DNA of 24,000 nucleotides, taken from NCBI RefSeq assembly GCF_000313565.1, contig NZ_HE578926.1:105370-129369 (forward strand), in the 5' to 3' direction. Of this stretch, positions 2,122-22,998 are shown in pieces. Under the pieces are notes generated by a model. It searched no databases. It had not been told where the DNA came from and was given only the letters and a program-made list of their open reading frames with translations. The stretch comes from Dielma fastidiosa. GTDB taxonomy: Bacteria; Bacillota_I; Bacilli_A; Erysipelotrichales; Erysipelotrichaceae. A program made the position numbers and the translations under genes. Numbering within the stretch: position 1 is the first letter of the stretch; the number at the start of each line of letters is the position of its first letter.

Positions 2122-2149
2122 AAAAAAGCCGCCTAATTTTCATCAGGCA
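2122..2149 (-). terminator. Weak candidate intrinsic terminator overlapping the TetR stop codon
   Basis: Minus-strand RNA UGCCU-GAUGAAAAUU-AGGCG (5 bp including one G.U pair) followed by GCUUUUUUA. The stem is short, so confidence is low. Confidence 0.3.
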
Positions 2150-2714
2150 GCAAGTTCGGCAGCAGATTTTTAATATTCCTCAAATTCGTAGAATCCTTAC
2201 TGATCCAGCAGGAAATCAGATTCCCATGAATCAGCGTCAGCAGCATCTTCGAATACTGATCCGCATGCATCTCATCATAACCGCACGCCATCAATTTCTC
2301 ACGATACAAAACCTCCCACTTTCGATACACTTCCTTTGAAGCCTCATCCAGCTCCTCACTGATATAAGTAGCCTCAATCCCCATAAACGTGATAATCAGC
2401 GACTTCAGACCTTCCCTGCCATTTTCAATATCTCTGGCAAGACATTCCGCCATCCAGCAAAAAACCTCCACCGCATTATCAGAGACTGAAAATATATTCT
2501 TGCGAATCCCCATCTCCATCTTATCATAAGCGTCATGAACAACAGCCACCGCCAGCTGATTCTTACCGCCAGGAAAATAATGATAAAAAGATCCTTTTGG
2601 AATATCACATGCACTTACGATCTCATTGATACCAACACCAAAATAACCCTTCTGCGAGAATAATGTAGACGCCTTTTCAAGTATCATCTCCCGCTTTTCC
2701 GCACTGTGATTCAT
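2133..2714 (-). CDS. TetR/AcrR-family transcriptional regulator
   Basis: 193 aa. N-terminal HTH signature REMILEKASTLFSQKGYFGVGINEIVSACDIPKGSFYHYFPGGKNQL is typical of TetR_N. ATG at 2712-2714 with GGGTGGTGG upstream. Confidence 0.85.
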   Translation of the reverse strand: MNHSAEKREMILEKASTLFSQKGYFGVGINEIVSACDIPKGSFYHYFPGGKNQLAVAVVHDAYDKMEMGIRKNIFSVSDNAVEVFCWMAECLARDIENGREGLKSLIITFMGIEATYISEELDEASKEVYRKWEVLYREKLMACGYDEMHADQYSKMLLTLIHGNLISCWISKDSTNLRNIKNLLPNLLPDEN

Positions 2715-4613: not shown

Positions 4614-4641
4614 AGTTCCTCCTATCCCGTTTGTATTTCAC

Positions 4642-4656
4642 TAGACGAACGGTCTA
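4642..4656. promoter_or_regulatory. Operator-like inverted repeat TAGAC-N5-GTCTA at the predicted transcription start of the reductase gene
   Basis: Plus strand TAGACGAACGGTCTA (arms 4642-4646 and 4652-4656), immediately downstream of the -10 at 4662-4667. The only regulator nearby is the TetR gene at 2133-2714. Confidence 0.4.
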
Positions 4657-4661
4657 CTATT

Positions 4662-4689
4662 AGTATACCTGAAGTTGCTTCAATGTCAA
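4662..4689 (-). promoter_or_regulatory. SigA-type promoter for the flavin reductase gene
   Basis: Minus strand: TTGACA (4684-4689), 16-nt spacer, TATACT (4662-4667). About 45 nt upstream of the ATG at 4613. Confidence 0.65.
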
Positions 4690-4859
4690 GACAGTTTTGT
4701 GAATTGTTTAGCTTACAAGCATCAATAATCACTTGTGGATTTATTATCCCTTACATGTAATGTCATCATAGATCTATCAAAAACTCAGCTCCACTTACAA
4801 AGAAAAAGAGAAATGCATAATACATTCCTCCACAAAAAAGCCCCAATTTTTCGAACCTA

Positions 4860-6077
4860 TTATTTCTGCTTCAGCAATCCCATAAACGAGCTGCCATTCT
4901 GCGGCGCCGCCACTCCAAAGAAATCGCAGACGCTCGCACCCACATCCGACAATGACTTCCGCAAGCCTAACTCAACGCCATGCACCTGCCCATGCCATAC
5001 CAACAGCGGCACATTTTCACGCGTATGCTTATTATGACCGATATCCGGATCGTTGCCATGATCTGCCATCACGACCAGCACATCCTCATCATTCAGCAGT
5101 TCAATGATTTGAGCAATCTTCGCATCCGCCAGCTTCAGCAATTCCATATACCACTTAGCATCCTGACTGTGACCGGCAAGATCGGTCTCCTGCACATTGG
5201 TACAAATAAAACCATGCTTCATAGACTTCACGGCATCCAGCGTCAGATCCAGCACTTCACCAGTATCCACACAGGAAATCGACTTGCCATCATCATTTGC
5301 GACAATGTCTGCCACCTTACCAAGCAGCGTTACTTCAATCCCCGCCTCACTCAAAATCGTCGGTGCCTGAACGCTCTTATCCACACCATAACCAAGATGG
5401 CGGCACATATAACCTTGTTCATATGACTTTGACTTCACGGCATGAATCCCGATAAAACGATCCTCACGCGTCTCCTCGGCAGCCAGAATATCCTTAATCG
5501 TATTACCTGTACCGCCAAAAGGAATCACCCGGTTGACCGTTACTACCTCTCTGACCTGCCGGGCCAGCTCCAGCTCTTTTTCAAACGGCATGACATCCAG
5601 CGGCGCCGTACAATTATACGCCATGCCAAAATCTGCATCAATATTATCCGCCACCGTACACGCATCATCCACTAACAGATAACGCAGCTTGCCGCGGCTG
5701 ATAACATCAACCTTATGACCCAAGGAAAGCAAATGCTCAGCAACCTCATCCACCTTATCCTGAAAAGGCTGTACCTTTGGAACCTTTGGCAAAGTGCCCA
5801 TAATTTCCTGATGTCCCATAAACGTATCAGCGCCAAAATGCATCAACTCACATTTTCCAAAATTAGCTTCCTTGCTGAAATGCATATTTTTGCTTGTCTT
5901 GCCAAACGCATTCATCAATCCCAGCCGTTCCAATGCCGGCAGCTTTAAATCCGGATAATCATTCAAAATACTGCCTAATGTAGAGCTGCTTTCATCGCCG
6001 GGCCGTGCCGTTGCCGCATCGCTCATCGCGCCGATGCCAAAACCATCCAGTACAATGACTACAAATCGCTGATTCAT
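4860..6077 (-). CDS. yhfW: YhfW-like phosphopentomutase-family (alkaline-phosphatase superfamily) phosphomutase
   Basis: 405 aa. DeoB-like motifs: N-terminal VVIVLDGFGIG; nucleophile region GADTFMGHQE; TDLAGHSQD; MADHGNDP. The start overlaps the upstream stop as ATGA (6074-6077). Confidence 0.75.
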   Translation of the reverse strand: MNQRFVVIVLDGFGIGAMSDAATARPGDESSSTLGSILNDYPDLKLPALERLGLMNAFGKTSKNMHFSKEANFGKCELMHFGADTFMGHQEIMGTLPKVPKVQPFQDKVDEVAEHLLSLGHKVDVISRGKLRYLLVDDACTVADNIDADFGMAYNCTAPLDVMPFEKELELARQVREVVTVNRVIPFGGTGNTIKDILAAEETREDRFIGIHAVKSKSYEQGYMCRHLGYGVDKSVQAPTILSEAGIEVTLLGKVADIVANDDGKSISCVDTGEVLDLTLDAVKSMKHGFICTNVQETDLAGHSQDAKWYMELLKLADAKIAQIIELLNDEDVLVVMADHGNDPDIGHNKHTRENVPLLVWHGQVHGVELGLRKSLSDVGASVCDFFGVAAPQNGSSFMGLLKQK

Positions 6078-7231
6078 TTTATTTCATCTCCCAAGCTGTT
6101 GTAAATTCCAAGCAGCTTCATCTCGCCTGTATGGATGCCTTCAACAACCGCTACATTGCTGCGCGTCACAAAAATCTGAAAACGGAAAGCCATGACCACC
6201 GTATCACTCACCGTACAAGGCTGATCCAATTCAAAATAATAGTCAATACTTTCCAGACTCGGCGGTTCTACATGGTACAGCCTTGCATGATCCGCGGACT
6301 GACCAACCAATGCATTCGCAACATGAGAACGGCGATAAAAACCACCGCCATAACAATAGGAACGCTCATCAAAATTATGCGATATCTCACTGACATAAGT
6401 CACGCAGGGAATCTCCACACATTCCTTATGCGCATGAAGCGGCGTTGTTCCACTCAAACCATGCCCTGGTTCACCGCTGTTTACCGGATAGCCCTTCATT
6501 TCATTCAAGGTAAAGGTACAAGTCGCTGACGGCGCATTCACATTTTCAATCTCGATGCCATGTTCTGCCAGCATTTCCTGTGCCTTCAGCAATGATTCCA
6601 TATTCGGTGTCGGTGCAATCGTATCCTTTTCTTCATCATAAAGAAAGCATGGGAACGAAGTCACACCGGCAATTTCAATCGCTTCAAGTTTTTTTAATTC
6701 CTCAATAACCGCCGGCAAAACATCTAAGCGAAAGCCCGCTGTCTGGCCGCTGTAAATCATATCCCTTGGACCGACAACTTTCAGCAAAACCTTTTGCCTG
6801 ATACCAAGCGCTTTCGCACATTCATTAATTTCCCGTGCCTTTTCCACAGAAAATATAGTGAAATAATGACAGCCATAGGCTACTAATGCTTTAAGCATCG
6901 CTTTCGGTGCCTGAACCAGATGACCGACATTGGCGATTGGTATCTGATGATCAATCATCACCTTGGCTTCTTTAAAGTCTACCACCACAGCTCCTTCAAA
7001 CCCTAATTCAACAAGCGTCTTCGCAATCAAAGGATTACGGCCCAGCTGTTTCAGCATAAAGTACAAAGCGATATGCTGCTGATTTGCAGCCGCCAGCATC
7101 TGTTTCGCATTCTTTTTTAATGTATCAAGATCTACCACATACGTATCCGGCAAAATAAGTCCCTGCTGATGAAGCTGAAACGATGCCTCGATAAGTTCAC
7201 GGTTTCTTCTTAACGTAGAGCTTAAGAACAT
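6074..7231 (-). CDS. yhfX: YhfX-like PLP-dependent alanine-racemase-fold (fold type III) protein
   Basis: 385 aa. The N-terminus MFLSSTLRRNRELIEASFQLHQQGLILPDTYVVDLDTL resembles E. coli YhfX as I recall it. Candidate PLP lysine in YFMLKQLGRNP. RBS AAGGAAGGTGA. 10-nt overlap with the upstream gene. Confidence 0.7.
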   Translation of the reverse strand: MFLSSTLRRNRELIEASFQLHQQGLILPDTYVVDLDTLKKNAKQMLAAANQQHIALYFMLKQLGRNPLIAKTLVELGFEGAVVVDFKEAKVMIDHQIPIANVGHLVQAPKAMLKALVAYGCHYFTIFSVEKAREINECAKALGIRQKVLLKVVGPRDMIYSGQTAGFRLDVLPAVIEELKKLEAIEIAGVTSFPCFLYDEEKDTIAPTPNMESLLKAQEMLAEHGIEIENVNAPSATCTFTLNEMKGYPVNSGEPGHGLSGTTPLHAHKECVEIPCVTYVSEISHNFDERSYCYGGGFYRRSHVANALVGQSADHARLYHVEPPSLESIDYYFELDQPCTVSDTVVMAFRFQIFVTRSNVAVVEGIHTGEMKLLGIYNSLGDEIK

Positions 7232-8325
7232 TCTTTCACCTTCCTTATACTTTCCTTTAAAATCCGCAGAATAGTCTCACTGCCGCCGCGCATTGGATTG
7301 ATACGAATCATTCGTTTTTTCAATGTCGGATCGTTTTTAAGGAAAGTTCCCGATACCCGATAAAACATCGGTACCACTTCATATTTAGATTCAGCACCTA
7401 CCGGATTTGGCGCCGCACCCAGTTTTTGCGCTTCTTCCAGTACAGCTTCCGCAATATCTTCCCTAAATTCAACCAAAAGTACCTTTGATTGGGCATTTGC
7501 CAAGAAGGCATCTTTAATTTCCGGGATTCTGCCATCATTTAATGCATGTACGATTCGTTCATTTTCCTCTGCCTGAATCGCCAGAGCTACCGGAGCATAG
7601 ACAAGCATTCTCAGCAGCTCCATCGCCTGCCAGCCCTGTACCTTACTGCCGCCGGAATAATTATTGCGTTCTACCTCATCAATGAGTTCAGCCTTGCCAA
7701 GCAGGATGCCGACACCTTCCGGACCCAGCAGTTTGAATGCTGAGAAGGCACTTAAATCCGCCCCTAATTCAACACCGATTTTGCTGACCTTCATCGCCGC
7801 GTAATTATCATCAGTAATAATTGGAATATCCTTGCACGCTTTAATCGTATCAATGACCGCCTGCATTTCATAGCTGTCGTCAGGCTTCTGCCTTGTGTAC
7901 TGCACAATGGCTCCATCGACATCCTGTTCCTGCATCACTTTGCGAATATCCTCTAAATCATTAAAATCAGCCTCTATCAAGGTCGCATTCAAACCATTTA
8001 AAGAAGTCAGCGTGGTTGGATAAACCGGTGCTTTATGTACCAGCACACGGCTGTTAGGCTTCAGCATCGCGGTTAAGCCCCAGCGAATCGCACCAGTACC
8101 GGCGCCGGTTACCAGGATTGCTTTCTCCGCATGGAAAAAACGTGCCAGCACCCGTTCAGCTTTTCCCGCATAGGATGGCTTATTACCTGGCTGAACAACA
8201 CCTAAATCACCCAGATTCAAAAATTCTGCGCCTTCAAATTCACGGCATATTTCATCAACCAAAGCAAATTGCTTTTGTTTAGCTTCCTCCAAAGAAATGG
8301 AGTGCAGCGGATATGTTTTCATCAT
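7222..8325 (-). CDS. yhfS: YhfS-like fold-type-I PLP-dependent enzyme (aminotransferase/SelA-like)
   Basis: 367 aa. Glycine-rich TGAGTGAIRWG, ITDDNYA (Asp contacting the PLP ring N) and SAFSAFKLLGPEG (Schiff-base Lys). RBS GAGGAGGAAAG. ATGA-type overlap with the upstream gene. Confidence 0.7.
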   Translation of the reverse strand: MMKTYPLHSISLEEAKQKQFALVDEICREFEGAEFLNLGDLGVVQPGNKPSYAGKAERVLARFFHAEKAILVTGAGTGAIRWGLTAMLKPNSRVLVHKAPVYPTTLTSLNGLNATLIEADFNDLEDIRKVMQEQDVDGAIVQYTRQKPDDSYEMQAVIDTIKACKDIPIITDDNYAAMKVSKIGVELGADLSAFSAFKLLGPEGVGILLGKAELIDEVERNNYSGGSKVQGWQAMELLRMLVYAPVALAIQAEENERIVHALNDGRIPEIKDAFLANAQSKVLLVEFREDIAEAVLEEAQKLGAAPNPVGAESKYEVVPMFYRVSGTFLKNDPTLKKRMIRINPMRGGSETILRILKESIRKVKECS

Positions 8326-9317
8326 CTTTCCTCCTCGCTGAGATAACCTTTTGAAAAATACATTGATAGATTTTGGAAATAGCGGTGTACCATCACATCT
8401 GGTTCCCCCGCCAGCTGACCTGCCAGTGCCAGCATTCCCGCAATCTTTGTTTCTTTACTTTCACAAATTAATACAAACCCACAGCCCAATGCCGAAGAAG
8501 GTACGCACAGCGCTGTAGCATTTACCATATTGACAACCCGGATCAGCCCTTTTGAGGCCGCCTTTTGAATAGCCTGCGACCGTTTATCAAAATGACCGAA
8601 TAACGTATCGCCAAACCCCTCCAAATCAATAGGACCTTCGTAGGAAATCAAACAATCGCATGTTGGCAGCACGCTATTCAAAAAATCAATCAAATCCAAG
8701 CGGCTGCCGCCAAGATCAGGAAAGGAACAGGATCTAACCGCAAATGGATAGTTCTGTGAATCCCTATCGCTGATTAAAATATCGCTTTGCGTTTCTGCCT
8801 CAGGCAATGGATAAGCATCCTTTACAACCTTGATCATCATCTCATAATCTCGGGTCATGAAACCGATAGAAGGGGTAAATGATATACCATCCGTTGATTG
8901 CTTCGTGTATTGTTTCATACTTTCCGCCTCAATCAAGGGGGAAATAAAACCAAACAAATTCACTGACATAGCCGGAGCCAGCACAGAACCGCCGCCATCA
9001 GTCCCAATTCCCACATCATTAATATAAGTGAGCACATTGATGGCTGTACCGCTTGAACTGCCGCTCATCCACCGGCCGCTGATTGGATTAATCAATTGAA
9101 GATCAACCGCCCGGCCGCCCAATGCATGAGCATCTAATGTATGCAGCGCATAACGATCCTTGCTCTGCAGACGCTTTAATAAAGAAGCGGGAATCTGTTC
9201 AACATTTTTAATACCCACCAAGAGTTCATTATGATGCACTTCAAAACACTGTTCCACCGAATGATAAGGATTTAATTCAGCTAACGCATGACGTTCTTCA
9301 ACATCAGGCATCATCAT
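8322..9317 (-). CDS. Truncated amidase-signature-like protein of unknown function; an extra gene relative to the E. coli yhf cluster
   Basis: 331 aa. SGSSSGTA and GTDGGGSVLAPA mirror the GGSSGGSA and GTDTGDSIRKPA motifs of the GatA encoded in this same window (15912-17330). LLVGIKNV resembles the VAVKDN catalytic-Lys motif. It is about 140 aa shorter than GatA. Three consecutive ATGs (9309-9317); the GGAGA position favours the third. Confidence 0.55.
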   Translation of the reverse strand: MMMPDVEERHALAELNPYHSVEQCFEVHHNELLVGIKNVEQIPASLLKRLQSKDRYALHTLDAHALGGRAVDLQLINPISGRWMSGSSSGTAINVLTYINDVGIGTDGGGSVLAPAMSVNLFGFISPLIEAESMKQYTKQSTDGISFTPSIGFMTRDYEMMIKVVKDAYPLPEAETQSDILISDRDSQNYPFAVRSCSFPDLGGSRLDLIDFLNSVLPTCDCLISYEGPIDLEGFGDTLFGHFDKRSQAIQKAASKGLIRVVNMVNATALCVPSSALGCGFVLICESKETKIAGMLALAGQLAGEPDVMVHRYFQNLSMYFSKGYLSEEER

Positions 9318-10192
9318 TCTCCAAAAATCCTTTGCGGATTATGAATCAGCATCTGATCCAGTGATGCCTGTGATAAACCAGCTTCAAGCAGCTTTGGAAT
9401 AAAGCTTTCAAACAAGTAGCAATAACCGATGCCGCCTTTATATTTCAGATGGGATTTGCGGGTCAGATCCTCCGACAGCACCACCTGATTCAGCAAGCCG
9501 TCTTTTTCTAACGCAAGCAGGAATTCAATTCTTTTTTCATCTGGGAGATAATTATTTTTGCCAATTGTGTCAAAGCCAACTGTAACCCCGCATGCTATAA
9601 CGGAACGGATCATATCAAGATCACCGCTTAAATCAACATGCCCAATTACAACCTTATTTGGATCTGCGCCATGATCAACTAAATATAATGCCTGATCTTT
9701 TGCCAGCGTAGCCAATGTAGTATGGGTATAAATGGGTTTATGTGTTTCCTTATGGGCGATTAATGCCGCTTCAAACAACTTGCGTTCATTCGCTGTCCAT
9801 TCATTTTTACTTGTTCCTATCTCACCGATGGCATCTGCTTTAACTGTACTTCCATCAATGCCTTCCATGATCTCTTTAATCATGAAATCAGCCAGCTCTT
9901 CTGCTGTCAGCCGATTCATCGCCTCTGGAATAAAAGGATCCTTATAGCAGCCGGTAGAGATCATAAAATGGATGCCTGATGCCTTTTCCAGTTTTAAAAT
10001 CGTATCTACATCACGGCCCATGCCAACATTAGTAACTTCCCAAATATTGCGTACCCCATAAGCATAAAGCTGTTTCAATTCAGCACAGATTTCATCAAAA
10101 CAGTCAAGACAGCAATCCTGATCTTTTTTCACACCGGATAAATCAATATGCATATGCTCATGCATCATCGTATAGCCATCGTTTAATTTCAT
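9314..10192 (-). CDS. php: Phosphotriesterase homology protein (Php/YhfV), amidohydrolase superfamily
   Basis: 292 aa. The N-terminus GYTMMHEHMHIDLSGVKK closely resembles E. coli Php (GYTLAHEHLHIDLSGFK), including the HxH metal ligands. Later HTT...GHVD...D motifs fit the binuclear-metal TIM barrel. Confidence 0.85.
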   Translation of the reverse strand: MKLNDGYTMMHEHMHIDLSGVKKDQDCCLDCFDEICAELKQLYAYGVRNIWEVTNVGMGRDVDTILKLEKASGIHFMISTGCYKDPFIPEAMNRLTAEELADFMIKEIMEGIDGSTVKADAIGEIGTSKNEWTANERKLFEAALIAHKETHKPIYTHTTLATLAKDQALYLVDHGADPNKVVIGHVDLSGDLDMIRSVIACGVTVGFDTIGKNNYLPDEKRIEFLLALEKDGLLNQVVLSEDLTRKSHLKYKGGIGYCYLFESFIPKLLEAGLSQASLDQMLIHNPQRIFGE

Positions 10193-10261
10193 TATTCTTA
10201 TCCTTTCTTAAAATAAATGACGAGCAAGTGATTGTCACTTTACCCGCCATTTTCATGAAAT

Positions 10262-11569
10262 TTAAGCTGCCAGTGTTACTAATTGAATAACAACCAGCAG
10301 GTTAATCAAAATACCATAGAGAATACAAGCAACCGGTCCAACGGCAAGTTCAACAATCGGTTTCTTGGAAACACGGTTCAGCAGCAGACAGCCGATTACA
10401 AATAATGCACCGATACCGCTTAACCCAACTGCCGCAGACATAGCTTCAGCTGATGCGACAGCACCAACAAGTAAGGCAACCTCTAAGACTTTATTCATTG
10501 AAGTACGGATATGCTCACCCATGTCTTTTACACCTGGGAACTTATCCATGCCTTTTGCGAAAACATTGATCAGCAATAATTCAATAATCATAACCGCCGC
10601 ACCGGCAATCATTGCAACTAATGGATTATTAAAGAATAACAGACCCATAACGAAGACAAATGTACAGCCTGCCGGTCCATAAACACCAGTAACGATTGCT
10701 GTTGTGAATACCAAAGGAATGAAACCAATAGCCCGTGCCGCCGCAGCCATAGCTGCTTCAGAAATTGCGCCATTGCTTACTAAAGCTAATGAAATTGGGT
10801 CACCGGCAATCATTGCCATACTTGTACCGCAAGCCAGCAAGCCGCCCATGATAGCAAGCAAGAACCAATTCTTTCTGATTTTAGCTACTTTTTCTGAGAA
10901 CACATTTACCAGATCCGTATTGGCCGTACCTGCTTCTCCCTTTACAGAAGCCGCGAAAGCCAGCATCGCAATCGTACCTGCGAGCATTGCCATACCCTCG
11001 CCATTTAACGCGATACTAACACCTTCACCAAGTGTAATAACACCAAACTTTTTAATCAGGAAATAAACGGCAACCACAATACCTGCCGTAATCGCGCCTT
11101 TTTTAAAGCCATGCTGATAAGCAACCGCGAGAGCTGGGAAAATGGCAAACGCAACTGTTACATATTTAGAAACGCTGCCTAATGCATCAAGGAAATTATA
11201 TGGCAGATAACTAAATGCTGTTACGACAAAATCAAGTCCGACCAGAATCAGCAAACCATACAGAGCGCCGATTACACCAGCCATGATTGTACCCTTATTA
11301 TTATCAGGACACCATGTACCAATGATATCCGTAGTCAGAAGCAAACAGTGAATTAATATAATTGTAGCCGCAATTGAGGTTGGAATACCAAAACCGATAA
11401 CTAAACCAAAGCTAATTGCGAAACTCATGGTAGCCAGTTCTTTACGTGAAATCTGACCATCAAAATACTGCGGAACGATGGGTCTGAAACCATCATTAAA
11501 CACCGCAATCCCCTTGTTCGCCAGAATTGATGCCAACGCACCAATTGCCGCGATGATAATGTACTTCAT
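10262..11569 (-). CDS. yhfT: YhfT-like polytopic membrane protein (putative transporter)
   Basis: 435 aa, Gly/Ala/Ile-rich with many predicted TM segments. It sits directly after a DUF2620 gene, as in E. coli yhfU-yhfT. GGAGGA RBS lies inside the end of the upstream gene. Confidence 0.65.
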   Translation of the reverse strand: MKYIIIAAIGALASILANKGIAVFNDGFRPIVPQYFDGQISRKELATMSFAISFGLVIGFGIPTSIAATIILIHCLLLTTDIIGTWCPDNNKGTIMAGVIGALYGLLILVGLDFVVTAFSYLPYNFLDALGSVSKYVTVAFAIFPALAVAYQHGFKKGAITAGIVVAVYFLIKKFGVITLGEGVSIALNGEGMAMLAGTIAMLAFAASVKGEAGTANTDLVNVFSEKVAKIRKNWFLLAIMGGLLACGTSMAMIAGDPISLALVSNGAISEAAMAAAARAIGFIPLVFTTAIVTGVYGPAGCTFVFVMGLLFFNNPLVAMIAGAAVMIIELLLINVFAKGMDKFPGVKDMGEHIRTSMNKVLEVALLVGAVASAEAMSAAVGLSGIGALFVIGCLLLNRVSKKPIVELAVGPVACILYGILINLLVVIQLVTLAA

Positions 11570-11572
11570 TTT

Positions 11573-11941
11573 CTAGTCCTCCATTTTTTCTAGAATAGCC
11601 TTCATTAATACTGGCAGCACCTGTTCAGCATGCTGGGCTGTAAAGCCAAATGCCTTTTTGCCCTCTTTCACTGCCGCGATGATTTCCTCATCAGGGAAAA
11701 CCTTGCCCGGCATAGAAATCGTCTTGCATTGATTCTGTCCCAATAAAGCAATTGCCATTGCCAACGCACCGCCGCCGCCCGTATTACAGGCACCTACATA
11801 ATAATCAAACTTCCCCATCTTTAAAGCATTTACTGCGTCCAGATCATTCTTAACAGCTAATTCAATACCTTCATAATTTTTTTGAAGAAAGTCATGAATC
11901 TCCTGCTTATTGATCTGACCGCCAACTACGATTCTCACCAT
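11573..11941 (-). CDS. yhfU: YhfU-like DUF2620 protein
   Basis: 122 aa. MVRIVVGGQ... beta-alpha start and a Cys-containing glycine loop DYYVGACNTGGGGALAMAIA. Size and position match E. coli YhfU. RBS AAAGGAGGA. Confidence 0.6.
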   Translation of the reverse strand: MVRIVVGGQINKQEIHDFLQKNYEGIELAVKNDLDAVNALKMGKFDYYVGACNTGGGGALAMAIALLGQNQCKTISMPGKVFPDEEIIAAVKEGKKAFGFTAQHAEQVLPVLMKAILEKMED

Positions 11942-11959
11942 CCCGCAAATCCTCCTTTC

Positions 11960-12301
11960 TTATTGATATAGATTGCATAGATGCATCAGCAGAAAACGTT
12001 TCTCACCTTCCGGGAAAGTACAAGGCGACTTTTCCATCAATGTTTCATAAAGCTTTTCTGCCTGATGAATACCCGAACTATTCACTACCTCATTCCAGAT
12101 GCTCTCATCTAATGTTTCTACTTCCTGACCTGTGCATATCCGTTGGGCAGCCATTGCCAAGTGAGTCGTAAACATTTCAAGAATACTTTCTTTATCCATG
12201 AATGCCACCAGATCCTCATCGATGACTTGGTTCACAAACTCTGCAACTTCCGCTGAGATAACTCCTGCATTTTCTAAAATTGATATACGCTCCTTCAGCA
12301 T
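11960..12301 (-). CDS. yhfY: YhfY-like stand-alone PRD-domain protein
   Basis: The track ORF 11960..12370 is trimmed to the ATG at 12299-12301 (MLKERISILEN...; 113 aa), preceded by GAGGAGGAG. All-helical, with two His 60 residues apart (TTH47LAMA and LMH107LCN), which is the spacing of the phosphorylatable His pair in PRD domains. Confidence 0.7.
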   Translation of the reverse strand: MLKERISILENAGVISAEVAEFVNQVIDEDLVAFMDKESILEMFTTHLAMAAQRICTGQEVETLDESIWNEVVNSSGIHQAEKLYETLMEKSPCTFPEGEKRFLLMHLCNLYQ

Positions 12302-12313
12302 AACTCCTCCTCT

Positions 12314-12331
12314 AATATACATTTTTTTGTA
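12314..12331. repeat. Copy 1 of an exact 18-bp direct repeat AATATACATTTTTTTGTA, abutting the yhfY RBS
   Basis: Identical to 12384-12401. Here the repeat extends into a 22-bp inverted repeat, AATATAC-N8-GTATATT (12314-12335). Confidence 0.8.
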
Positions 12332-12349
12332 TATTGATTGAATGAATAA

Positions 12350-12368
12350 GATTTGCATGATGCAAATC
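12350..12368. promoter_or_regulatory. 19-bp perfect palindrome GATTTGCAT-G-ATGCAAATC, centred between the two 18-bp repeats
   Basis: Read directly from the sequence. Its centre is at 12359; the midpoint between the two repeat copies is ~12357.5. Confidence 0.7.
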
Positions 12369-12383
12369 AATATTTATAATTCC

Positions 12384-12401
12384 AATATACATTTTTTTGT
12401 A
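12384..12401. repeat. Copy 2 of the exact 18-bp direct repeat, covering the predicted transcription start
   Basis: Identical to 12314-12331 and exactly 70 bp from it. It lies 8-25 nt downstream of the -10 hexamer at 12409-12414. Confidence 0.8.
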
Positions 12402-12408
12402 CAAATAA

Positions 12409-12437
12409 ATTATAGACTGATTCCCGATGAATGTCAA
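12409..12437 (-). promoter_or_regulatory. Perfect consensus SigA promoter for the yhfY-to-yhfW operon
   Basis: Minus strand: TTGACA (12432-12437), 17-nt spacer (12415-12431), TATAAT (12409-12414). Confidence 0.8.
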
Positions 12438-12477
12438 CCCTATTATTCGCAAGTATTCACATTAATAACTGTATGCT

Positions 12478-12512
12478 AATAAAGTAAAAGGCAACGTAAT
12501 ACCGTTACCTTT
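12478..12512 (-). terminator. Rho-independent terminator after the yhfZ-like gene
   Basis: Minus-strand RNA AAAGGUAACG-GUAUUA-CGUUGCCUUU (10-bp stem with one G.U pair) followed by UACUUUAUU. It starts 16 nt after the stop at 12529-12531. Confidence 0.65.
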
Positions 12513-12528
12513 AGTTAGATTTCAAAAT

Positions 12529-13452
12529 TTAATAGCTTGGTGTGATCTTTCCTTCCAGTACCAGCTTCTGATTATCCAGTACGATCTGTACATCAATCAA
12601 CTCACTCAGCAAGCCAGCCATTTCACGCCGCCGTGCATTCACTACCATAACAGCTTCCGTATCATCAATGTTATCGGATGGCAGCGAAACATAATTGATA
12701 TGCAGATGCTTATCAGTAATTTCATCTTCGTTCCAAATCGCCGCATCAAGCTCACCGCTGATAATTTTCTCAAGGATTTGGTTATATTCCACCTGGACAA
12801 ACTCCACCTGCCTGCCTTCACATGCATGCTCGGTCAATACCTTTTGGTCAATAGAATCATTATCGATACCAATTTTCATGCCATTTTCAATTGCCTTGCA
12901 TTTGGCATCATGAAATACAATCACATGCTCCGACAAATAAGAATGTCGGCCAAACGCTTTCACAATCTGTACGGAATCATTCTTCTTCATAATATTATTC
13001 GCCGCATAACGGGATATAATCGCAAAATCATACCGATCCGCAAGCAGCATCGCGATACGGTTGGTCGCTCCCCGCATATAGGCCATGGATGCCGGTAAAT
13101 TATACTGGTTTTCCATCGCCACAATCAAACCCGTCGCAAATCCCTCATAGCGTTTTGAATACGGCAGCGGCATAACTCCGACAATCGATGTAATGCCGGC
13201 AAAGGCCAGTAAGATCGCCGTGTTCTTCGCGATCAGAAAGGTTCCCAGATGTCCCTTAGATTCAAGCTTGATCGCGCCGTTTTCCTGAAGGAATTTAATT
13301 GAATTTTGAATTGTCCCCCGTGCAAGTCCTACTTTCTCTTTTAGATCAGAAACGGTTGGTATCTTCTCCCCAAGCTGCCAAAATAAAAACTCCTTCGCTA
13401 ATGTCATTGTTGAAAGACCGTTTTTACTCAATAATTTCTGATGGTAATCCAT
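12529..13452 (-). CDS. yhfZ: YhfZ-like regulator: N-terminal winged-HTH plus C-terminal solute-binding-protein-like domain
   Basis: 307 aa. HTH-like IPTVSDLKEKVGLARGTIQNSIKFLQENGAIKLESKGHLGTFL, followed by a ~230-aa alpha/beta region. Bracketed by terminators at 13497-13525 and 12478-12512, so probably monocistronic. A possible weak promoter is TTGCCA (13495-13500) with TATAAG after a 19-nt spacer, which is suboptimal. Confidence 0.65.
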   Translation of the reverse strand: MDYHQKLLSKNGLSTMTLAKEFLFWQLGEKIPTVSDLKEKVGLARGTIQNSIKFLQENGAIKLESKGHLGTFLIAKNTAILLAFAGITSIVGVMPLPYSKRYEGFATGLIVAMENQYNLPASMAYMRGATNRIAMLLADRYDFAIISRYAANNIMKKNDSVQIVKAFGRHSYLSEHVIVFHDAKCKAIENGMKIGIDNDSIDQKVLTEHACEGRQVEFVQVEYNQILEKIISGELDAAIWNEDEITDKHLHINYVSLPSDNIDDTEAVMVVNARRREMAGLLSELIDVQIVLDNQKLVLEGKITPSY

Positions 13453-13496
13453 CCCCTCACCTGCTTCCTCTTATAATTAAATTTAATCAGCAATTG

Positions 13497-13525
13497 GCAA
13501 GAAAAACCCGGATCACTCCAGGTTT
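13497..13525 (-). terminator. Rho-independent terminator ending the pcrA-to-13532 transcription unit
   Basis: Minus-strand RNA AAACCUGG-AGUGAU-CCGGGUUU (one G.U pair) running into UUCUU. It starts 6 nt after the stop at 13532-13534. Confidence 0.5.
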
Positions 13526-13531
13526 CACTTA

Positions 13532-14446
13532 TTAATTGCTGTCAGCTTGATTAACAACCGACCAGTCCGCGGCATCAGCCATCTTTGCCTTTACATAATA
13601 GATCTGCGGCAGATCATCCGATCCCTCTGCTATATTATAAACATGAACCTCAAGATTCATATTCTTAGCATCTTCCGCATCTGAGAAATATGTTTCGATC
13701 GGCAATACTGAAACAACCTTTTCAGCGGCATCATTTAAAAGCCAAAGCAAATCATCTTCGCCAATGTTATCATTAGCGTCAATGCTGACCCGCAGAAGAT
13801 TGTCTATAACACTGACCCGAACACTATCGACATTGTCATAGCTTAATGCAGCCTTCACATTTTCAATATCGGTATCTGTAATATTAGGATCAAGAATTGA
13901 TTTTGCCAATTCTGGATTTTTGGCCACGGTATAATTATCAATGACCCAATCCTCATTAGCCGCATTCTTTGTTTTCACATAATAAATCTGCGGCAATGCT
14001 TCACTGCCCTTGGTTGTGTTATACACATGAATTTCAAGATCATACATCTTGGTTGCAGCACTGTTTGTGAAATAGGTTTCTATCGGCAGTACCGCAGCTA
14101 TTTTATCAGCAGCATCGTTTAAGATCCAAAGAAGATCTCCCTCTGCCATATCATCACTGGTATTAATCATCACTCTAAGCGTTGCGCTGATCAGATTTAC
14201 TTCCAAATTATCGATATTGTCATAATTCAAATTACTTCTGATACTGGCAAGATCAGTTTCGGTAATTGCCGGATTCAGCTCATTCTTAAAACGATCCGCA
14301 ACCACTGGTTCACGGCTGTTTTCTAATGAGTTCATCAGCACGACACCAAGGATGATACATGGTACCAATACAATGATAATGCCCAGCCACAAGATAACGT
14401 GCGGCTTTTTCAGCTTAACGGGATTCGATGTTTTTTTAGCCATCAA
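13532..14446 (-). CDS. Membrane-anchored protein of unknown function with two tandem ~115-aa repeats
   Basis: 304 aa. Basic N-terminus and one TM (HVILWLGIIIVLVPCIILGVVLM). Then two copies of a module sharing ...YDN(I/V)D...LRV.I...DLLW(I/L)LNDAA.K...VLPIETYF...L(E)(I/V)HVYN...LPQIYYVK...DW. About half of the aligned positions are identical by eye. RBS GAAGGAG. Only 44 nt from the gatB stop, with no hairpin between. Confidence 0.6.
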   Translation of the reverse strand: MMAKKTSNPVKLKKPHVILWLGIIIVLVPCIILGVVLMNSLENSREPVVADRFKNELNPAITETDLASIRSNLNYDNIDNLEVNLISATLRVMINTSDDMAEGDLLWILNDAADKIAAVLPIETYFTNSAATKMYDLEIHVYNTTKGSEALPQIYYVKTKNAANEDWVIDNYTVAKNPELAKSILDPNITDTDIENVKAALSYDNVDSVRVSVIDNLLRVSIDANDNIGEDDLLWLLNDAAEKVVSVLPIETYFSDAEDAKNMNLEVHVYNIAEGSDDLPQIYYVKAKMADAADWSVVNQADSN

Positions 14447-14490
14447 CTCACTCCTTCACGTACTATTGTACTTCAAATTATGCTGTTTGG

Positions 14491-17623: not shown

Positions 17624-17637
17624 CGATCTTCCTCCTG

Positions 17638-22998
<5,361 letters not shown>

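What the first reader, a model, noticed from the sequence alone, without database searches (positions are those of the whole stretch)
4860..13452. Orphan php/yhf-type catabolic-looking operon (eight coupled genes plus YhfZ regulator), rearranged and expanded relative to E. coli
**Seen in the sequence**
- The genes run 12301 to 4860 on the minus strand: stand-alone PRD protein, DUF2620, YhfT membrane protein, Php, truncated amidase-signature protein, fold-I PLP enzyme, alanine-racemase-fold PLP enzyme, DeoB-like phosphomutase.
- They are joined by ATGA overlaps (6074-6077, 8322-8325, 9314-9317), a 10-nt overlap (7222-7231), and gaps of 3, 18 and 69 nt. This reads as a single translationally coupled unit behind a perfect consensus promoter.
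- A YhfZ-type HTH plus ligand-binding regulator sits upstream on its own transcript.

**Established knowledge**
- These families correspond to the E. coli K-12 yhfS-yhfT-yhfU-php-yhfW-yhfX-yhfY-yhfZ block, next to the fructoselysine frl genes.
- Php has been crystallised as a phosphotriesterase homologue. To my knowledge neither Php nor the cluster has an assigned substrate or pathway.

**Inference**
- The enzyme set (metal-dependent lactone/ester/amide hydrolase, amidase, two PLP enzymes, phosphomutase, PTS-linked PRD module) suggests uptake, probably with phosphorylation, and stepwise breakdown of an unusual nitrogen-containing compound, such as a glycated or otherwise conjugated amino acid, or an amino-sugar acid.
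- The transcription order differs from E. coli (Z-Y-X-W-php-U-T-S there; Z | Y-U-T-php-amidase-S-X-W here), and there is an additional enzyme. This may therefore be a more complete version of the pathway.
Basis: partly seen in the sequence, partly recalled or inferred. Interest (0 to 1): 0.72.

Follow-up and report, generated by a model that had tools for sequence, protein, structure and literature searches.

The report
Orphan yhf/php operon with amidase
This is a real nine-gene nutrient-breakdown-type operon of the still-uncharacterised E. coli yhf/php family, in the form that is standard in gut Firmicutes, where a compact amidase belongs to the set; comparison across 160 related loci gives testable leads but no substrate.

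Summary
Nine minus-strand genes (4860-13452) fall in the YhfW, YhfX, YhfS, amidase-signature, Php, YhfT, YhfU/DUF2620, YhfY/PRD and YhfZ families. The stated overlaps and gaps are correct, and a 12/12 consensus promoter is present. The window is from Dielma fastidiosa.

New findings:
- **Amidase.** The "extra" amidase is not a truncation. It is a conserved ~330-aa amidase-signature subfamily with an intact Lys-Ser-Ser triad. It occurs in 64 of 72 complete yhf loci, and 71 of 72 testable amidase loci lie in yhf clusters.
- **Gene order.** Order is reshuffled in more than 12 ways, but gene content is constant. The E. coli version is the reduced one.
- **Other accessory genes.** A secreted beta-lactamase-family lipoprotein and a Cys phosphatase recur in some loci.
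- **Operator.** A palindrome, TACA-N6-TGTA, marks the operon promoter across genera and is probably the YhfZ operator. The window has two copies.
- **YhfU.** Its predicted fold is RpiB-like, with an invariant Cys.

No substrate is published. The most likely function is YhfZ-controlled catabolism of an amide- or ester-linked, nitrogen-containing compound handled as a phosphorylated sugar-like intermediate. This is an inference. The finding is a solid example of a known orphan operon, of moderate interest.

The parts
12529..13452 (-). yhfZ: HTH (HTH_41/GntR-like) plus ligand-binding-domain regulator, on its own transcript
   Evidence: NF041241 YhfZ_full scores 386 bits against a cut-off of 260. 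Pfam gives YhfZ_C 247 bits and HTH_41 57 bits. A terminator-like hairpin follows at 12512..12487.
12487..12512 (-). terminator-like hairpin after yhfZ
   Evidence: One search reports a 10-pair stem followed by TACTTTATTA.
12409..12437 (-). sigma-70/sigma-A type promoter of the eight-gene operon
   Evidence: TTGACA-17-TATAAT, 12 of 12 matches. It is the only perfect site in 4400-13800.
12388..12401 (.). operator candidate O1, palindrome TACAAAAAAATGTA, starting 8 nt downstream of the -10 box
   Evidence: The window has only two matches to TACA-N6-TGTA in 24 kb, against 0.17 expected. The same palindrome lies within 400 nt upstream of the first operon gene in most related loci: 91 of 141 hits in 1.45 Mb are upstream of Y, Z or U.
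12318..12331 (.). operator candidate O2, identical palindrome, abutting the Shine-Dalgarno sequence of yhfY
   Evidence: It lies 70 bp centre to centre from O1. Paired sites are mostly 63-75 bp apart (106 in one locus) in eleven other loci (L002, L003, L024, L063, L065, L067, L070, L073, L076, L077, L080, L081).
12350..12368 (.). 8-bp inverted repeat GATTTGCATCATGCAAATC between the two operators; role unknown
   Evidence: The leader folds with dG -22 and z -2.7.
11960..12301 (-). yhfY: stand-alone PRD protein (113 aa)
   Evidence: Pfam PRD scores 35.5 bits and no CAT or DNA-binding domain is present. Both PRD histidines, H47 and H107, are at least 95% conserved in 78 homologues.
11573..11941 (-). 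yhfU: DUF2620, small soluble protein with an RpiB-like fold and an invariant Cys52-Asn-Thr-Gly4 loop
   Evidence: Pfam DUF2620 scores 148 bits. The AlphaFold2 model has pLDDT 94.9. The best Foldseek matches in the PDB are ribose-5-phosphate isomerase B (1o1x, 5ifz, 3he8, 3k7s; TM 0.56-0.69). hhalign aligns C52/T54 with RpiB C66/T68. The gene is adjacent to yhfT in all 72 complete loci.
10262..11569 (-). yhfT: polytopic membrane protein, presumed permease
   Evidence: Pfam YhfT scores 500 bits and no other family matches at E<=1. There are many hydrophobic 19-mers, consistent with roughly 10-12 TM segments.
10209..10255 (-). intercistronic hairpin plus U-rich tract in the 69-nt yhfT-php spacer
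   Evidence: dG -22.3 kcal/mol, z -4.16, and 0 of 200 shuffles fold as well. It coincides with the recombination breakpoint against L002.
9314..10192 (-). php: binuclear-metal amidohydrolase-superfamily hydrolase of the PTE family
   Evidence: Pfam PTE scores 275 bits. NF007373 scores 339 bits, below its equivalog cut-off of 486. The match to E. coli Php structures 4LEF/1BF6 has E about 5e-85. H11, H13, E124, H157, H185 and D242 are at least 95% conserved.
8322..9317 (-). compact amidase-signature enzyme (331 aa), the ninth family of the cluster
   Evidence: Pfam Amidase scores 31.8 bits over residues 81-159. The AlphaFold2 model has pLDDT 88. Foldseek finds GatA, malonamidase E2 and FAAH at TMq about 0.6 and 11-16% identity. 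K37, S87 and S111 are invariant. At least 1190 homologues of 320-350 aa exist.
7222..8325 (-). yhfS: fold-type I PLP enzyme
   Evidence: Pfam gives YhfS-like_C 151 bits and Aminotran_5. PDB 4J8L matches at E 1e-129. K198 and D172 are conserved. There are weak hits to Met gamma-lyase, cysteine desulfurase and DgaE-family models.
6074..7231 (-). yhfX: fold-type III (alanine-racemase-fold) PLP enzyme
   Evidence: Pfam gives YhfX-like_C 127 bits and Ala_racemase_N 62 bits. PDB 4KBX matches at E 1e-99. K61 is conserved.
4860..6077 (-). yhfW-type phosphopentomutase-like metalloenzyme
   Evidence: NF009049 scores 566 bits against a cut-off of 254. The DeoB models score below their cut-offs. B. cereus phosphopentomutase structures match at E 1e-30. 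D11, T95, D299, H303, D339, H340 and H351 are conserved.
4807..4831 (-). terminator-like hairpin after the last gene
   Evidence: One search reports an 11-pair stem followed by TTTTCTTTGT.

Best explanation
**What it is**
This is a locally regulated, probably catabolic operon of the yhf/php family, in its nine-gene Bacillota form.

**Shown**
- yhfZ is transcribed alone.
- A consensus promoter drives yhfY-yhfU-yhfT, then a hairpin spacer, then php-amidase-yhfS-yhfX-yhfW.
- Two copies of a palindrome (TACA-N6-TGTA) sit over the transcription start and against the first ribosome-binding site. This palindrome marks the operon promoter in many genera.
- All enzymes keep their catalytic residues.
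- The compact amidase is a faithful member of the gene set.

**Inferred mechanism**
1. Without inducer, YhfZ binds the two palindromes and blocks transcription.
2. The stand-alone PRD protein YhfY, almost always encoded next to yhfZ, couples this switch to the PTS/carbon status of the cell.
3. YhfT, with its constant partner YhfU, imports the substrate.
4. The amidase-signature enzyme cleaves an amide (or ester) bond of the imported conjugate. In some lineages a secreted beta-lactamase-family lipoprotein does this.
5. Php opens a lactone/lactam ring or cleaves a phospho-ester in an anionic, probably phosphorylated, sugar-acid-like moiety.
6. YhfX inverts an amino-bearing carbon, and YhfS removes the amino group or eliminates a leaving group.
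7. YhfW, perhaps with the RpiB-like YhfU, converts the remaining phospho-sugar into a central pentose-phosphate-type metabolite.

The substrate itself is not known.
For: **Architecture and regulation**
- Gene families are confirmed.
- Junctions, promoter and terminators are confirmed.
- The palindrome occurs twice in the window, and only there.
- Across the 80 genome loci, 91 of 141 palindrome hits lie within 400 nt upstream of Y, Z or U, whichever gene order a locus has. In L076, L077 and L081 the palindrome lies directly upstream of the beta-lactamase-family gene that heads the operon.

**Gene-set fidelity**
- 64 of 72 complete loci carry the amidase, across more than 12 gene orders.
- 71 of 72 amidase-centred metagenome loci carry yhf neighbours.
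- U and T are adjacent in 72 of 72 loci. Z and Y are adjacent in about 65 of 72.

**Catalytic competence**
- The amidase triad K37/S87/S111 is invariant, with the canonical 24-residue Ser-Ser spacing, and the protein has an amidase-signature fold.
- The Php metal ligands, the PLP lysines of YhfS and YhfX, and the metal and Thr residues of YhfW are conserved.

**Phospho-sugar theme**
- YhfW falls in a phosphopentomutase family.
- YhfU has an RpiB-like fold with aligned Cys and Thr.
- Among Php's NCBIfam matches, the best one naming a specific substrate is phospho-furanose lactonase, at 95.6 bits.
- A Cys phosphatase (PF13350) was recruited into 12 loci at two different positions.
- php overexpression in E. 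coli feeds a route ending in a phosphorylated C4 keto-acid (PMC3010111).

**Amide or ester cleavage as a pathway step**
- A lipoprotein beta-lactamase-family hydrolase is present in 6 of 8 amidase-less loci, against 10 of 64 amidase-containing loci. Fisher p = 0.001, not corrected for phylogeny.

**Parallel cluster**
- An SFCGS - membrane proteins - metallohydrolase - DgaE-type PLP lyase - KDPG aldolase cluster exists in E. faecium (PMC11934601).
- DUF2620 is weakly related to SFCGS: 14 of 37 members match, best E 1.2e-3.
- DgaE acts on D-glucosaminate-6-phosphate (PMC9529869).
Against: - No experiment links any of these genes to a substrate.
- No kinase or recognisable PTS EII component is encoded in or near the cluster, so the origin of a phosphate on the intermediates is unexplained.
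- Php scores below the equivalog cut-offs for both E. coli Php and phospho-furanose lactonase.
- The similarity of YhfU to RpiB is weak at sequence level: hhalign E 0.15, and Pfam LacAB_rpiB matches 1 of 37 members.
- Assigning the palindrome to YhfZ is circumstantial, and E. coli lacks the motif.
- The anticorrelation between amidase and beta-lactamase-family genes rests on a few related lineages.
- The 80 genome loci are those closest to the Dielma YhfT, out of 286 species hits. The 89% figure therefore describes Bacillota-like clusters, not the whole family.
Confidence: 0.6

Rival explanations
1. YhfY, YhfU and YhfT form a non-canonical, PTS-fed group-translocation system. HPr~P would phosphorylate a PRD histidine of YhfY. 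YhfY would pass the phosphate to Cys52 of YhfU, acting like an EIIB. The substrate would then be phosphorylated as it crosses YhfT. This would explain phosphorylated intermediates without a kinase.
For: - The cluster has no kinase, yet it encodes phospho-sugar-type enzymes.
- H47 and H107 of YhfY and C52 of YhfU are invariant.
- U and T are adjacent in all 72 loci.
- The analogous SFCGS cluster (small Cys/Gly-rich protein plus membrane proteins) ends in enzymes that need a phosphorylated substrate, a DgaE-type lyase and a KDPG aldolase.
Against: - The top structural matches of YhfU are RpiB isomerases and receiver domains, not PTS EIIB proteins.
- No Pfam or NCBIfam PTS model matches U, T or Y.
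- PRD domains are known as phosphorylation-controlled regulatory modules, and yhfY sits next to yhfZ in about 90% of loci, which fits regulation.
- No PTS gene recurs in the flanks.
Confidence: 0.12
2. The operon degrades an N-acylated amino-lactone or amino-lactam, of the N-acyl-homoserine-lactone type or a related amino-acid lactone. The amidase would remove the acyl group and Php would open the ring. YhfX and YhfS would racemise the homoserine-like product and then gamma-eliminate or deaminate it.
For: - PTE-family enzymes include many lactonases, and Php matches them at E about 1e-35.
- Amidase-signature FAAH binds an acyl-homoserine lactone (PDB 8ey1, among the fold matches).
- The best non-YhfS sequence matches of YhfS are Met gamma-lyase, O-succinylhomoserine sulfhydrylase and cystathionine gamma-synthase models, all of which act on homoserine derivatives.
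- YhfW has a faint hit to a "proposed homoserine kinase" model of the same superfamily, at 19 bits.
Against: - This gives no role for a phosphopentomutase-like enzyme, an RpiB-like protein or a recruited phosphatase.
- All the hits invoked are far below family cut-offs.
- The cluster is common in gut and lactic-acid Bacillota, where such signals are not known to be abundant. That last point is my own judgement.
- Php differs from the lactonase subfamilies in its bridging ligand: Glu124 here, against a carboxylated Lys in those enzymes (from memory).
Confidence: 0.1
3. The cluster is a detoxification or resistance module, or a salvage or biosynthetic module, for example one that inactivates an amide- or beta-lactam-type or nucleoside-type antibiotic, rather than a nutrient catabolic pathway.
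For: - A beta-lactamase-family serine hydrolase and an amidase recur in the cluster.
- The enzyme half of the operon has been exchanged by recombination between close relatives, as is often seen for genes under diversifying selection.
Against: - A dedicated importer, a ligand-binding local regulator, a PRD module typical of carbon-source control, two PLP enzymes and a phosphomutase fit stepwise catabolism better.
- The beta-lactamase-family protein is present in only about a quarter of loci.
- The library search turned up no resistance phenotype; one genome-wide antibiotic-survival screen in E. coli that mentions yhfW (PMC12924614) was not read.
Confidence: 0.08
4. The amidase-like gene is a decayed or non-catalytic passenger, a truncated remnant, and the functional pathway is the eight-gene E. 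coli set.
For: - The Pfam Amidase model matches only residues 81-159, at 31.8 bits.
- The protein is about 100-150 residues shorter than the solved amidase-signature enzymes.
- E. coli lacks it.
Against: - Homologues have a conserved length of 320-350 aa.
- The AlphaFold2 model is confident, covers the whole amidase-signature core, and has pLDDT 88.
- The Lys-cisSer-Ser triad and GGGS motif are invariant in 70 sequences.
- The gene is retained through more than 12 independent gene-order rearrangements.
- It is translationally coupled on both sides in the window.
Confidence: 0.03

Closest known systems
Escherichia coli K-12 yhfZ-yhfY-yhfX-yhfW-php-yhfU-yhfT-yhfS cluster (b3383-b3376)
   Same: All eight protein families are shared, at 27-56% amino-acid identity. 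The genes are co-oriented and contiguous, with the regulator first. No function is known.
   Different: The gene order differs. E. coli has no amidase-signature gene and no TACA-N6-TGTA site in the 18 kb examined, which cuts yhfZ at its 5' end and so omits its upstream region. The frl neighbourhood of E. coli is not reproduced in any of the 80 genome loci.
Glycine-rich SFCGS / DUF4312 / DUF4311 / DUF4310 / amidohydrolase / DgaE-family lyase / KDPG-aldolase cluster (e.g. E. faecium TnEFM-UMCG-1)
   Same: The layout is parallel: a small Cys- and Gly-rich soluble protein next to polytopic membrane protein(s), then an amidohydrolase-superfamily metallohydrolase and a fold-type I PLP enzyme. DUF2620 weakly matches the SFCGS model. 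YhfS weakly matches the DgaE-family model. From memory, such clusters also carry a stand-alone PRD protein.
   Different: The membrane proteins belong to different families. That cluster has no aldolase counterpart here, and it has no YhfX, YhfW or amidase. It is also uncharacterised, so it lends analogy rather than function.
[quoted passage not shown]
   Same: It provides a precedent for PLP-dependent deamination of a phosphorylated amino-sugar acid delivered by a phosphorylating transporter (PMC9529869).
   Different: The Salmonella system uses a canonical mannose-family PTS (from memory). YhfS reaches only 16 bits on the DgaE-family model, whose cut-off is 385.
Amidase-signature enzymes (GatA, malonamidase E2, FAAH, peptide amidase)
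   Same: The fold matches (TMq about 0.6), the GSSSG...GTDGGGS signature is present, and the Lys-cisSer-Ser triad has 24-residue Ser-Ser spacing.
   Different: The protein is 331 aa against 412-600 aa for these enzymes, with 11-16% identity. Its Lys-to-cisSer distance is about 19 residues shorter than I recall for malonamidase E2 (K62/S131). The family is confined to yhf clusters.
Ribose-5-phosphate isomerase B / LacAB family
   Same: This is the best structural match for YhfU. The strand-Cys-x-Thr-Gly-x-Gly-helix motif aligns with RpiB C66/T68.
   Different: YhfU is 122 aa against about 150 aa for RpiB. The Pfam LacAB_rpiB model is essentially not matched. YhfU is always encoded next to a membrane protein.
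Phosphopentomutase DeoB and phospho-furanose lactonases of the PTE family
   Same: YhfW shares the metal and Thr core with B. cereus phosphopentomutase. Php shares the binuclear-metal TIM barrel.
   Different: YhfW scores 139 bits on TIGR01696 deoB, whose cut-off is 341. Php scores 96 bits on the phospho-furanose lactonase model, whose cut-off is 630. Neither is an equivalog.

Membership tests
yhf/php operon family (E. coli yhfSTU-php-yhfWXYZ) | All eight protein families present above curated thresholds | tested here: met
   Pfam and NCBIfam matches all exceed their cut-offs: YhfT 500, DUF2620 148, PTE 275, YhfS-like_C 151, YhfX-like_C 127, PRK12383 566, PRD 35.5 and YhfZ_full 386 bits.
yhf/php operon family (E. 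coli yhfSTU-php-yhfWXYZ) | Genes contiguous and co-oriented with the regulator at the head | tested here: met
   The same holds in 72 related loci.
yhf/php operon family (E. coli yhfSTU-php-yhfWXYZ) | E. coli gene order Z-Y-X-W-php-U-T-S | tested here: not met
   The window has Z | Y-U-T-php-Ami-S-X-W. Order is variable across the family, with more than 12 orders seen, so order is not really a defining feature.
Amidase signature family (PF01425) | Pfam model above its gathering score | tested here: met
   31.8 bits against a cut-off of 27, but only residues 81-159 align.
Amidase signature family (PF01425) | Ser-cisSer-Lys catalytic triad | tested here: met
   K37, S87 and S111 are invariant in 18 and at least 95% conserved in 70 homologues. 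The S87-S111 spacing of 24 residues matches that of malonamidase E2 S131-S155; the residue numbers of that enzyme are taken from the mutant names.
Amidase signature family (PF01425) | Amidase-signature fold | tested here: met
   The AlphaFold2 model has pLDDT 88. 109 PDB matches have E<=1e-3, and all of the top 50 are amidase-signature enzymes.
Amidase signature family (PF01425) | Amide-hydrolase activity | not testable with these tools
   Needs an enzyme assay.
E. coli Php equivalog (NF007373) | Score above the equivalog cut-off | tested here: not met
   339 bits against a cut-off of 486. The protein is a member of the PTE family (PF02126, 275 bits) and the closest relative of Php (E 5e-85), but it is not certified as the same function.
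E. coli Php equivalog (NF007373) | Binuclear metal ligands (His-x-His, bridging Glu, two His, Asp) | tested here: met
   H11, H13, E124, H157, H185 and D242 are at least 95% conserved in 77 sequences. The offset of one residue from the E. coli numbering agrees with the alignment ranges.
Phosphopentomutase DeoB (TIGR01696 / NF003766) | Score above the equivalog cut-off | tested here: not met
   139 bits against 341, and 176 bits against 256. The separate YhfW-type model NF009049 is met, at 566 bits against 254.
RpiB/LacAB sugar-phosphate isomerases (PF02502) | Pfam model matched | tested here: not met
   1 of 37 YhfU homologues matches, at E 0.23.
RpiB/LacAB sugar-phosphate isomerases (PF02502) | Fold and catalytic Cys/Thr loop | tested here: inconclusive
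   Foldseek matches have TM 0.56-0.69 and E from 6e-4 to 1e-2. hhalign aligns C52/T54 with C66/T68, but only at E 0.15.
Phosphotransferase system enzyme II | Recognisable EIIA, EIIB or EIIC domains | tested here: not met
   No PTS model matches YhfT, YhfU or YhfY. No EIIB structure appears among the top 50 fold matches of YhfU.
BglG/LicT-type PRD antiterminators | CAT RNA-binding domain plus two PRDs | tested here: not met
   YhfY has a single PRD and 113 aa. The GlcT and LicT models score 19-22 bits against cut-offs of 300-320.
YhfZ regulators (NF041241) | Full-length equivalog model | tested here: met
   386 bits against a cut-off of 260.

The most novel reading that the evidence does not exclude
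The constant trio of stand-alone PRD protein (two invariant His), RpiB-like YhfU (invariant Cys52) and YhfT membrane protein is a new kind of phosphotransfer-driven uptake system. It would be paralleled by the SFCGS/DUF4310-4312 clusters. It would phosphorylate its substrate without any canonical EIIA/B/C, and it would feed a nine-enzyme route for a still-unknown amide-linked amino/phospho-sugar nutrient.
Probability: 0.12. Interest if true: 0.85.

Novelty: new variant of a known kind. Interest (0 to 1): 0.45.

Why it matters
**The open problem**
- The yhf/php cluster is one of the long-standing orphan operons of E. coli K-12.
- Three of its proteins were crystallised by structural-genomics groups (1BF6/4LEF, 4J8L, 4KBX), yet no substrate has emerged.

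**What the window adds**
- The window shows the fuller form of the system, which is the common form in gut and lactic-acid Bacillota.
- The comparison done here turns a vague "unknown catabolic cluster" into concrete handles:
  - a ninth enzyme faithful to the cluster, which implies an amide or ester bond in the substrate;
  - alternative or extra accessory enzymes: a secreted serine hydrolase and a Cys phosphatase;
  - a cross-genus operator motif usable for regulon prediction and reporter design;
  - an RpiB-like identity for DUF2620.

**Payoff if solved**
- Identifying the substrate would annotate more than a thousand gene clusters and eight E. coli y-genes at once.
- It could also reveal a new nutrient niche in the gut.

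Tried and rejected
- **Literature.** Eight full-text searches on gene names, b-numbers, DUF names and "phosphotriesterase homology protein" found no functional assignment. Most hits for yhfS, yhfT, yhfU and yhfW are the unrelated Bacillus subtilis genes of the same names. "B3379" in PMC9396866 is a strain name. The yhfW mentions in PMC3423039 and PMC5293155 are uninformative.
- **Nucleoside hydrolase link.** An IU_nuc_hydro gene lies upstream of the cluster in five Lactobacillales-type loci. It sits outside the operator sites and is absent from the equivalent metagenome loci. I treat it as lineage synteny, not as part of the system.
- **frl link.** No fructoselysine-type genes recur next to the 80 genome loci, so the E. 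coli adjacency looks coincidental.
- **Neighbouring genes in the window.** The flavin reductase (2826-4613), TetR gene (2133-2714) and 304-aa membrane protein (13532-14446) are shared only with the closest relative, L002. They are not part of the cluster.
- **YhfT.** No Pfam or NCBIfam family other than YhfT matches even at E<=1.
- **YhfU as EIIB.** This is not supported by the fold search.
- **Leader as riboswitch or antiterminator.** The leader hairpin is modest (z -2.7) and YhfY lacks an RNA-binding domain. I did not pursue this with Rfam.

Full report
**1.

- The ORF list gives nine minus-strand genes at exactly the stated coordinates.
- Direct reading of the junctions shows ATGA start/stop overlaps at 6074-6077, 8322-8325 and 9314-9317. 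It also shows a 10-nt overlap (ATGTTCTTAA) at 7222-7231. The gaps are 18, 3 and 69 nt. A Shine-Dalgarno-like motif precedes every start.
- The yhfY start at 12301 is preceded by AGAGGAGGAG.
- The promoter scan finds one perfect TTGACA-17-TATAAT at 12437..12409. It also finds terminator-like hairpins after yhfZ (12512..12487) and after the last gene (4831..4807).
- Pfam and NCBIfam place the proteins in the following families:

| Gene | Family match |
|---|---|
| yhfW-like | NF009049 phosphopentomutase family, 566 bits (cut-off 254) |
| yhfX | YhfX-like_C + Ala_racemase_N |
| yhfS | YhfS-like_C + Aminotran_5 |
| amidase-like | Amidase, 31.8 bits, residues 81-159 only |
| php | PTE, 275 bits |
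| yhfT | YhfT, 500 bits |
| yhfU | DUF2620 |
| yhfY | PRD |
| yhfZ | YhfZ_full, 386 bits (cut-off 260) |

- The E. coli K-12 record shows yhfZ-Y-X-W-php-U-T-S next to frlABCDR. Every product is still named putative or uncharacterised.
- The closest database protein to the amidase is from Dielma fastidiosa, at 99% identity, so the window comes from that gut Erysipelotrichaceae species.

One refinement concerns the 69-nt yhfT-php spacer. It folds into a strong hairpin followed by a U-rich tract (dG -22.3, z -4.2). The eight genes are therefore two tightly coupled blocks (Y-U-T and php-Ami-S-X-W), joined by a structured spacer that could set different expression levels.

**2. The "extra" amidase belongs to the system**

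- The protein has at least 1190 homologues, nearly all 320-350 aa.
- An alignment of 18 diverse members shows invariant K37, the GSSSG motif (S87-S89) and GTDGGGS (S111). The same residues are at least 95% conserved in 70 cluster-encoded copies.
- The S87-S111 spacing of 24 residues equals that between the cis-Ser and the nucleophile Ser of malonamidase E2 (S131, S155).
- AlphaFold2 gives a confident model (pLDDT 88, pTM 0.89). Its Foldseek matches in the PDB are all amidase-signature enzymes, including GatA, malonamidase E2, FAAH and urethanases. These match at TMq about 0.6 and 11-16% identity.
- It is therefore a compact, catalytically equipped amidase-signature subfamily, not a truncated remnant.

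**3. Gene-neighbourhood comparison**

*Loci found through YhfT*
- A scan of one genome per species with a YhfT alignment hit 286 species, and the best 80 loci were kept. These are mostly Bacillota: Erysipelotrichales, Lachnospirales, Oscillospirales and Lactobacillales. A few are Spirochaetales and one is Coriobacteriia.
- I labelled ORFs by BLASTP against the window proteins. 72 loci have T, U, Php, S, X and W, and 64 of these (89%) also carry the amidase.
- The gene orders found were:

| Loci | Order |
|---|---|
| 10 | seven further rarer orders (1-3 loci each) |

*Loci found through the amidase*
- A metagenome scan with the amidase alignment returned 80 loci. Of the 72 with at least 1.5 kb of flank, 71 have yhf genes beside the amidase. 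The exception has only 285 nt upstream.
- Further orders appear there, including Z-Y-T-U-Ami-Php-S-X-W and Z-Y-T-U-Php-X-Ami-S-W, sometimes with a second Php-S pair.

*Conclusions*
- Content is constant while order is shuffled, which is the signature of a functionally coupled set.
- U and T are adjacent in all 72 loci. Z and Y are adjacent in about 65.
- The E. coli cluster has none of the accessory genes and is the reduced form.

**4. Other accessory genes**

- *Beta-lactamase-family lipoprotein.* It is a lipoprotein (signal peptide plus Cys) with a Beta-lactamase PF00144 domain of about 210 bits and an S-V-T-K motif. It occurs in about 21 genome loci, usually directly upstream of yhfU or between yhfY and yhfU. 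It is present in 6 of the 8 amidase-less loci, against 10 of 64 amidase-containing loci. Fisher p = 0.001. This is not corrected for shared ancestry, and the six amidase-less loci are mostly related Clostridia.
- *Cys phosphatase.* A Y_phosphatase3 protein (PF13350, HCATGKDRTG) occurs in 12 of 160 loci. It sits either between Z and Y or after W, and the two groups are only about 44% identical, suggesting separate recruitments.
- *Nucleoside hydrolase.* It is adjacent in five Lactobacillales-type loci, but lies outside the operator sites and is absent from equivalent metagenome loci. I do not count it as part of the system.

**5. A conserved operator**

- The yhfY leader has two copies of ATACAAAAAAATGTAT (core TACA-N6-TGTA). 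One starts 8 nt after the -10 box (12388-12401). The other abuts the ribosome-binding site (12318-12331). They are 70 bp apart.
- These are the only two matches in the 24-kb window, where 0.17 are expected.
- Across the 80 genome loci (1.45 Mb) there are 141 matches. Of these, 91 lie within 400 nt upstream of yhfY (42), yhfZ (31) or yhfU (18), whichever gene heads the operon in that lineage.
- In L076, L077 and L081 the pair of sites sits directly upstream of the beta-lactamase-family gene that heads the operon.
- Paired sites are mostly 63-75 bp apart in eleven other loci from several genera, and 106 bp apart in one (L073).
- This is strong comparative evidence for a cluster-specific operator. 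Assigning it to YhfZ is an inference, based on YhfZ being the only DNA-binding protein of the set and on the sites upstream of yhfZ itself.
- E. coli lacks the motif in the 18 kb examined, which does not include the region upstream of yhfZ.

**6. The small proteins**

*YhfU (DUF2620)*
- It gives a very confident model (pLDDT 94.9).
- The best PDB matches are ribose-5-phosphate isomerase B structures (TM 0.56-0.69). Receiver domains and flavodoxins follow. No PTS EIIB appears in the top 50.
- A profile-sequence alignment to E. coli RpiB is weak (E 0.15). It does pair the invariant G-A-C52-N-T54-G-G-G-G loop with RpiB L-I-C66-G-T68-G-V-G.
- DUF2620 members also weakly hit Pfam Gly_rich_SFCGS: 14 of 37 match, best E 1.2e-3.
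- SFCGS proteins head another orphan cluster. It runs SFCGS, DUF4312, DUF4311, DUF4310, amidohydrolase, DgaE-family PLP lyase, KDPG aldolase, and is documented in an E. faecium transposon (PMC11934601).

*YhfY*
- It is a single PRD with both canonical histidines conserved (H47, H107). It has no RNA- or DNA-binding domain.

**7. How it most likely works**

*Shown*
- Operon structure.
- Intact catalytic residues in all five enzymes.
- Fidelity of the nine-gene set.
- A promoter-associated palindrome conserved across genera.

*Inferred*
- YhfZ represses by occupying the two palindromes, and YhfY links the switch to PTS status.
- YhfT, with YhfU, imports the substrate.
- The amidase, or a secreted serine hydrolase in some lineages, cleaves an amide or ester bond.
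- Php opens a ring or ester in an anionic moiety.
- YhfX and YhfS carry out PLP chemistry on an amino-bearing carbon.
- YhfW, and possibly YhfU, rearrange a phospho-sugar.

*Support for the phospho-sugar theme*
- YhfW falls in a phosphopentomutase family.
- YhfU has an RpiB-like fold.
- Among Php's NCBIfam matches, the best one naming a specific substrate is phospho-furanose lactonase, although at 96 bits against a cut-off of 630.
- A phosphatase has been recruited into some clusters.
- php overexpression in E. coli opens a bypass ending in 2-oxo-3-hydroxy-4-phosphobutanoate (PMC3010111).

*The gap*
- There is no kinase or canonical PTS permease.
- That gap motivates the most novel reading: YhfY, YhfU and YhfT might themselves be a phosphotransfer-driven uptake system. 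I give this about 12%.

**8. Comparison with the known, and novelty**

- The cluster is a member of the yhf/php family by content (membership met). It does not follow the E. coli gene order, but order is not conserved anywhere in the family.
- None of the enzymes reaches an equivalog threshold for a characterised function. This holds for Php, DeoB, phospho-furanose lactonase, DgaE and RpiB.
- No publication in the searchable library assigns a substrate.
- The solved structures are deposited as uncharacterised proteins.
- The window instance is therefore an ordinary representative of a widespread nine-gene variant of a known orphan operon, and this variant has not been described in the literature.
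- Interest is moderate. The finding is not surprising to a specialist. The comparative results do give concrete experiments for an old open question.

**9. Noticed in passing**

- Against the closest relative in the genome set (L002, Clostridiales bacterium VE202-08), the window is 93-98% identical in DNA over 10037-21561 and again at 4952-5251.
- Identity falls to 74-82% over about 5250-10036, and to 54% inside the amidase gene. This region covers php, the amidase, yhfS, yhfX and most of yhfW.
- The enzyme half of the operon has therefore been exchanged by recombination, with one breakpoint at the hairpin spacer.

Noticed in passing
window 5250-10036 versus L002 (Clostridiales bacterium VE202-08): The operon is a mosaic. 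DNA identity is 93-98% on both sides (10037-21561 and 4952-5251). It falls to 74-82% across php, the amidase, yhfS, yhfX and most of yhfW, and to 54% inside the amidase gene. This indicates recombinational replacement of the enzyme half of the operon between close relatives.
   Followed up: partly
window 10209-10255 (yhfT-php spacer): A stable hairpin followed by a U-rich tract (dG -22.3 kcal/mol, z -4.2) lies inside the operon. It could be a partial terminator or a processing or stability element. It coincides with the recombination breakpoint.
   Followed up: partly
window 12350-12368: An 8-bp inverted repeat, GATTTGCATCATGCAAATC, sits exactly between the two TACA-N6-TGTA operator candidates. 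It may be a site for a second regulator or a leader hairpin. Its conservation was not checked.
   Followed up: no
L010, L018, L021, L023, L034 (between yhfY and yhfU); L076, L077, L081 (upstream of yhfU); about 21 loci in all: A lipoprotein with a Beta-lactamase (PF00144) serine-hydrolase domain is a recurrent accessory gene of the cluster. It is enriched where the amidase is missing. The window itself has no such gene.
   Followed up: partly
L013, L022, L098, L100, L101, L105, L111 (Z-PTP-Y); L015, L093-L096 (after yhfW): A Y_phosphatase3 (PF13350) Cys phosphatase has been recruited into the cluster at two different positions, in two sequence groups about 44% identical to each other.
   Followed up: partly
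L075-L077, L081, L056: An inosine-uridine nucleoside hydrolase (PF01156) gene lies just upstream of the cluster in five loci. It is outside the operator sites and is not found in equivalent metagenome loci, so it is probably lineage synteny.
   Followed up: partly
window 13532-14446 (minus strand): A 304-aa protein with an N-terminal membrane anchor and no Pfam match consists of two tandem copies of a module of about 120 aa. It is conserved (97%) in L002 only.
   Followed up: no
window 2826-4613 and 2133-2714 (minus strand): An exported flavocytochrome-type reductase (FMN_bind + FAD_binding_2) has its own near-consensus promoter (4689..4662). A TetR-family regulator lies directly downstream of the operon. 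Both are shared only with the closest relative and so are not part of the yhf set.
   Followed up: partly
L113-L117, L122, L129 (metagenome): Some clusters (order Z-Y-T-U-Php-X-Ami-S-W) carry a second Php-YhfS pair at the end, and a small 135-aa Cys-rich membrane protein inside the cluster.
   Followed up: no
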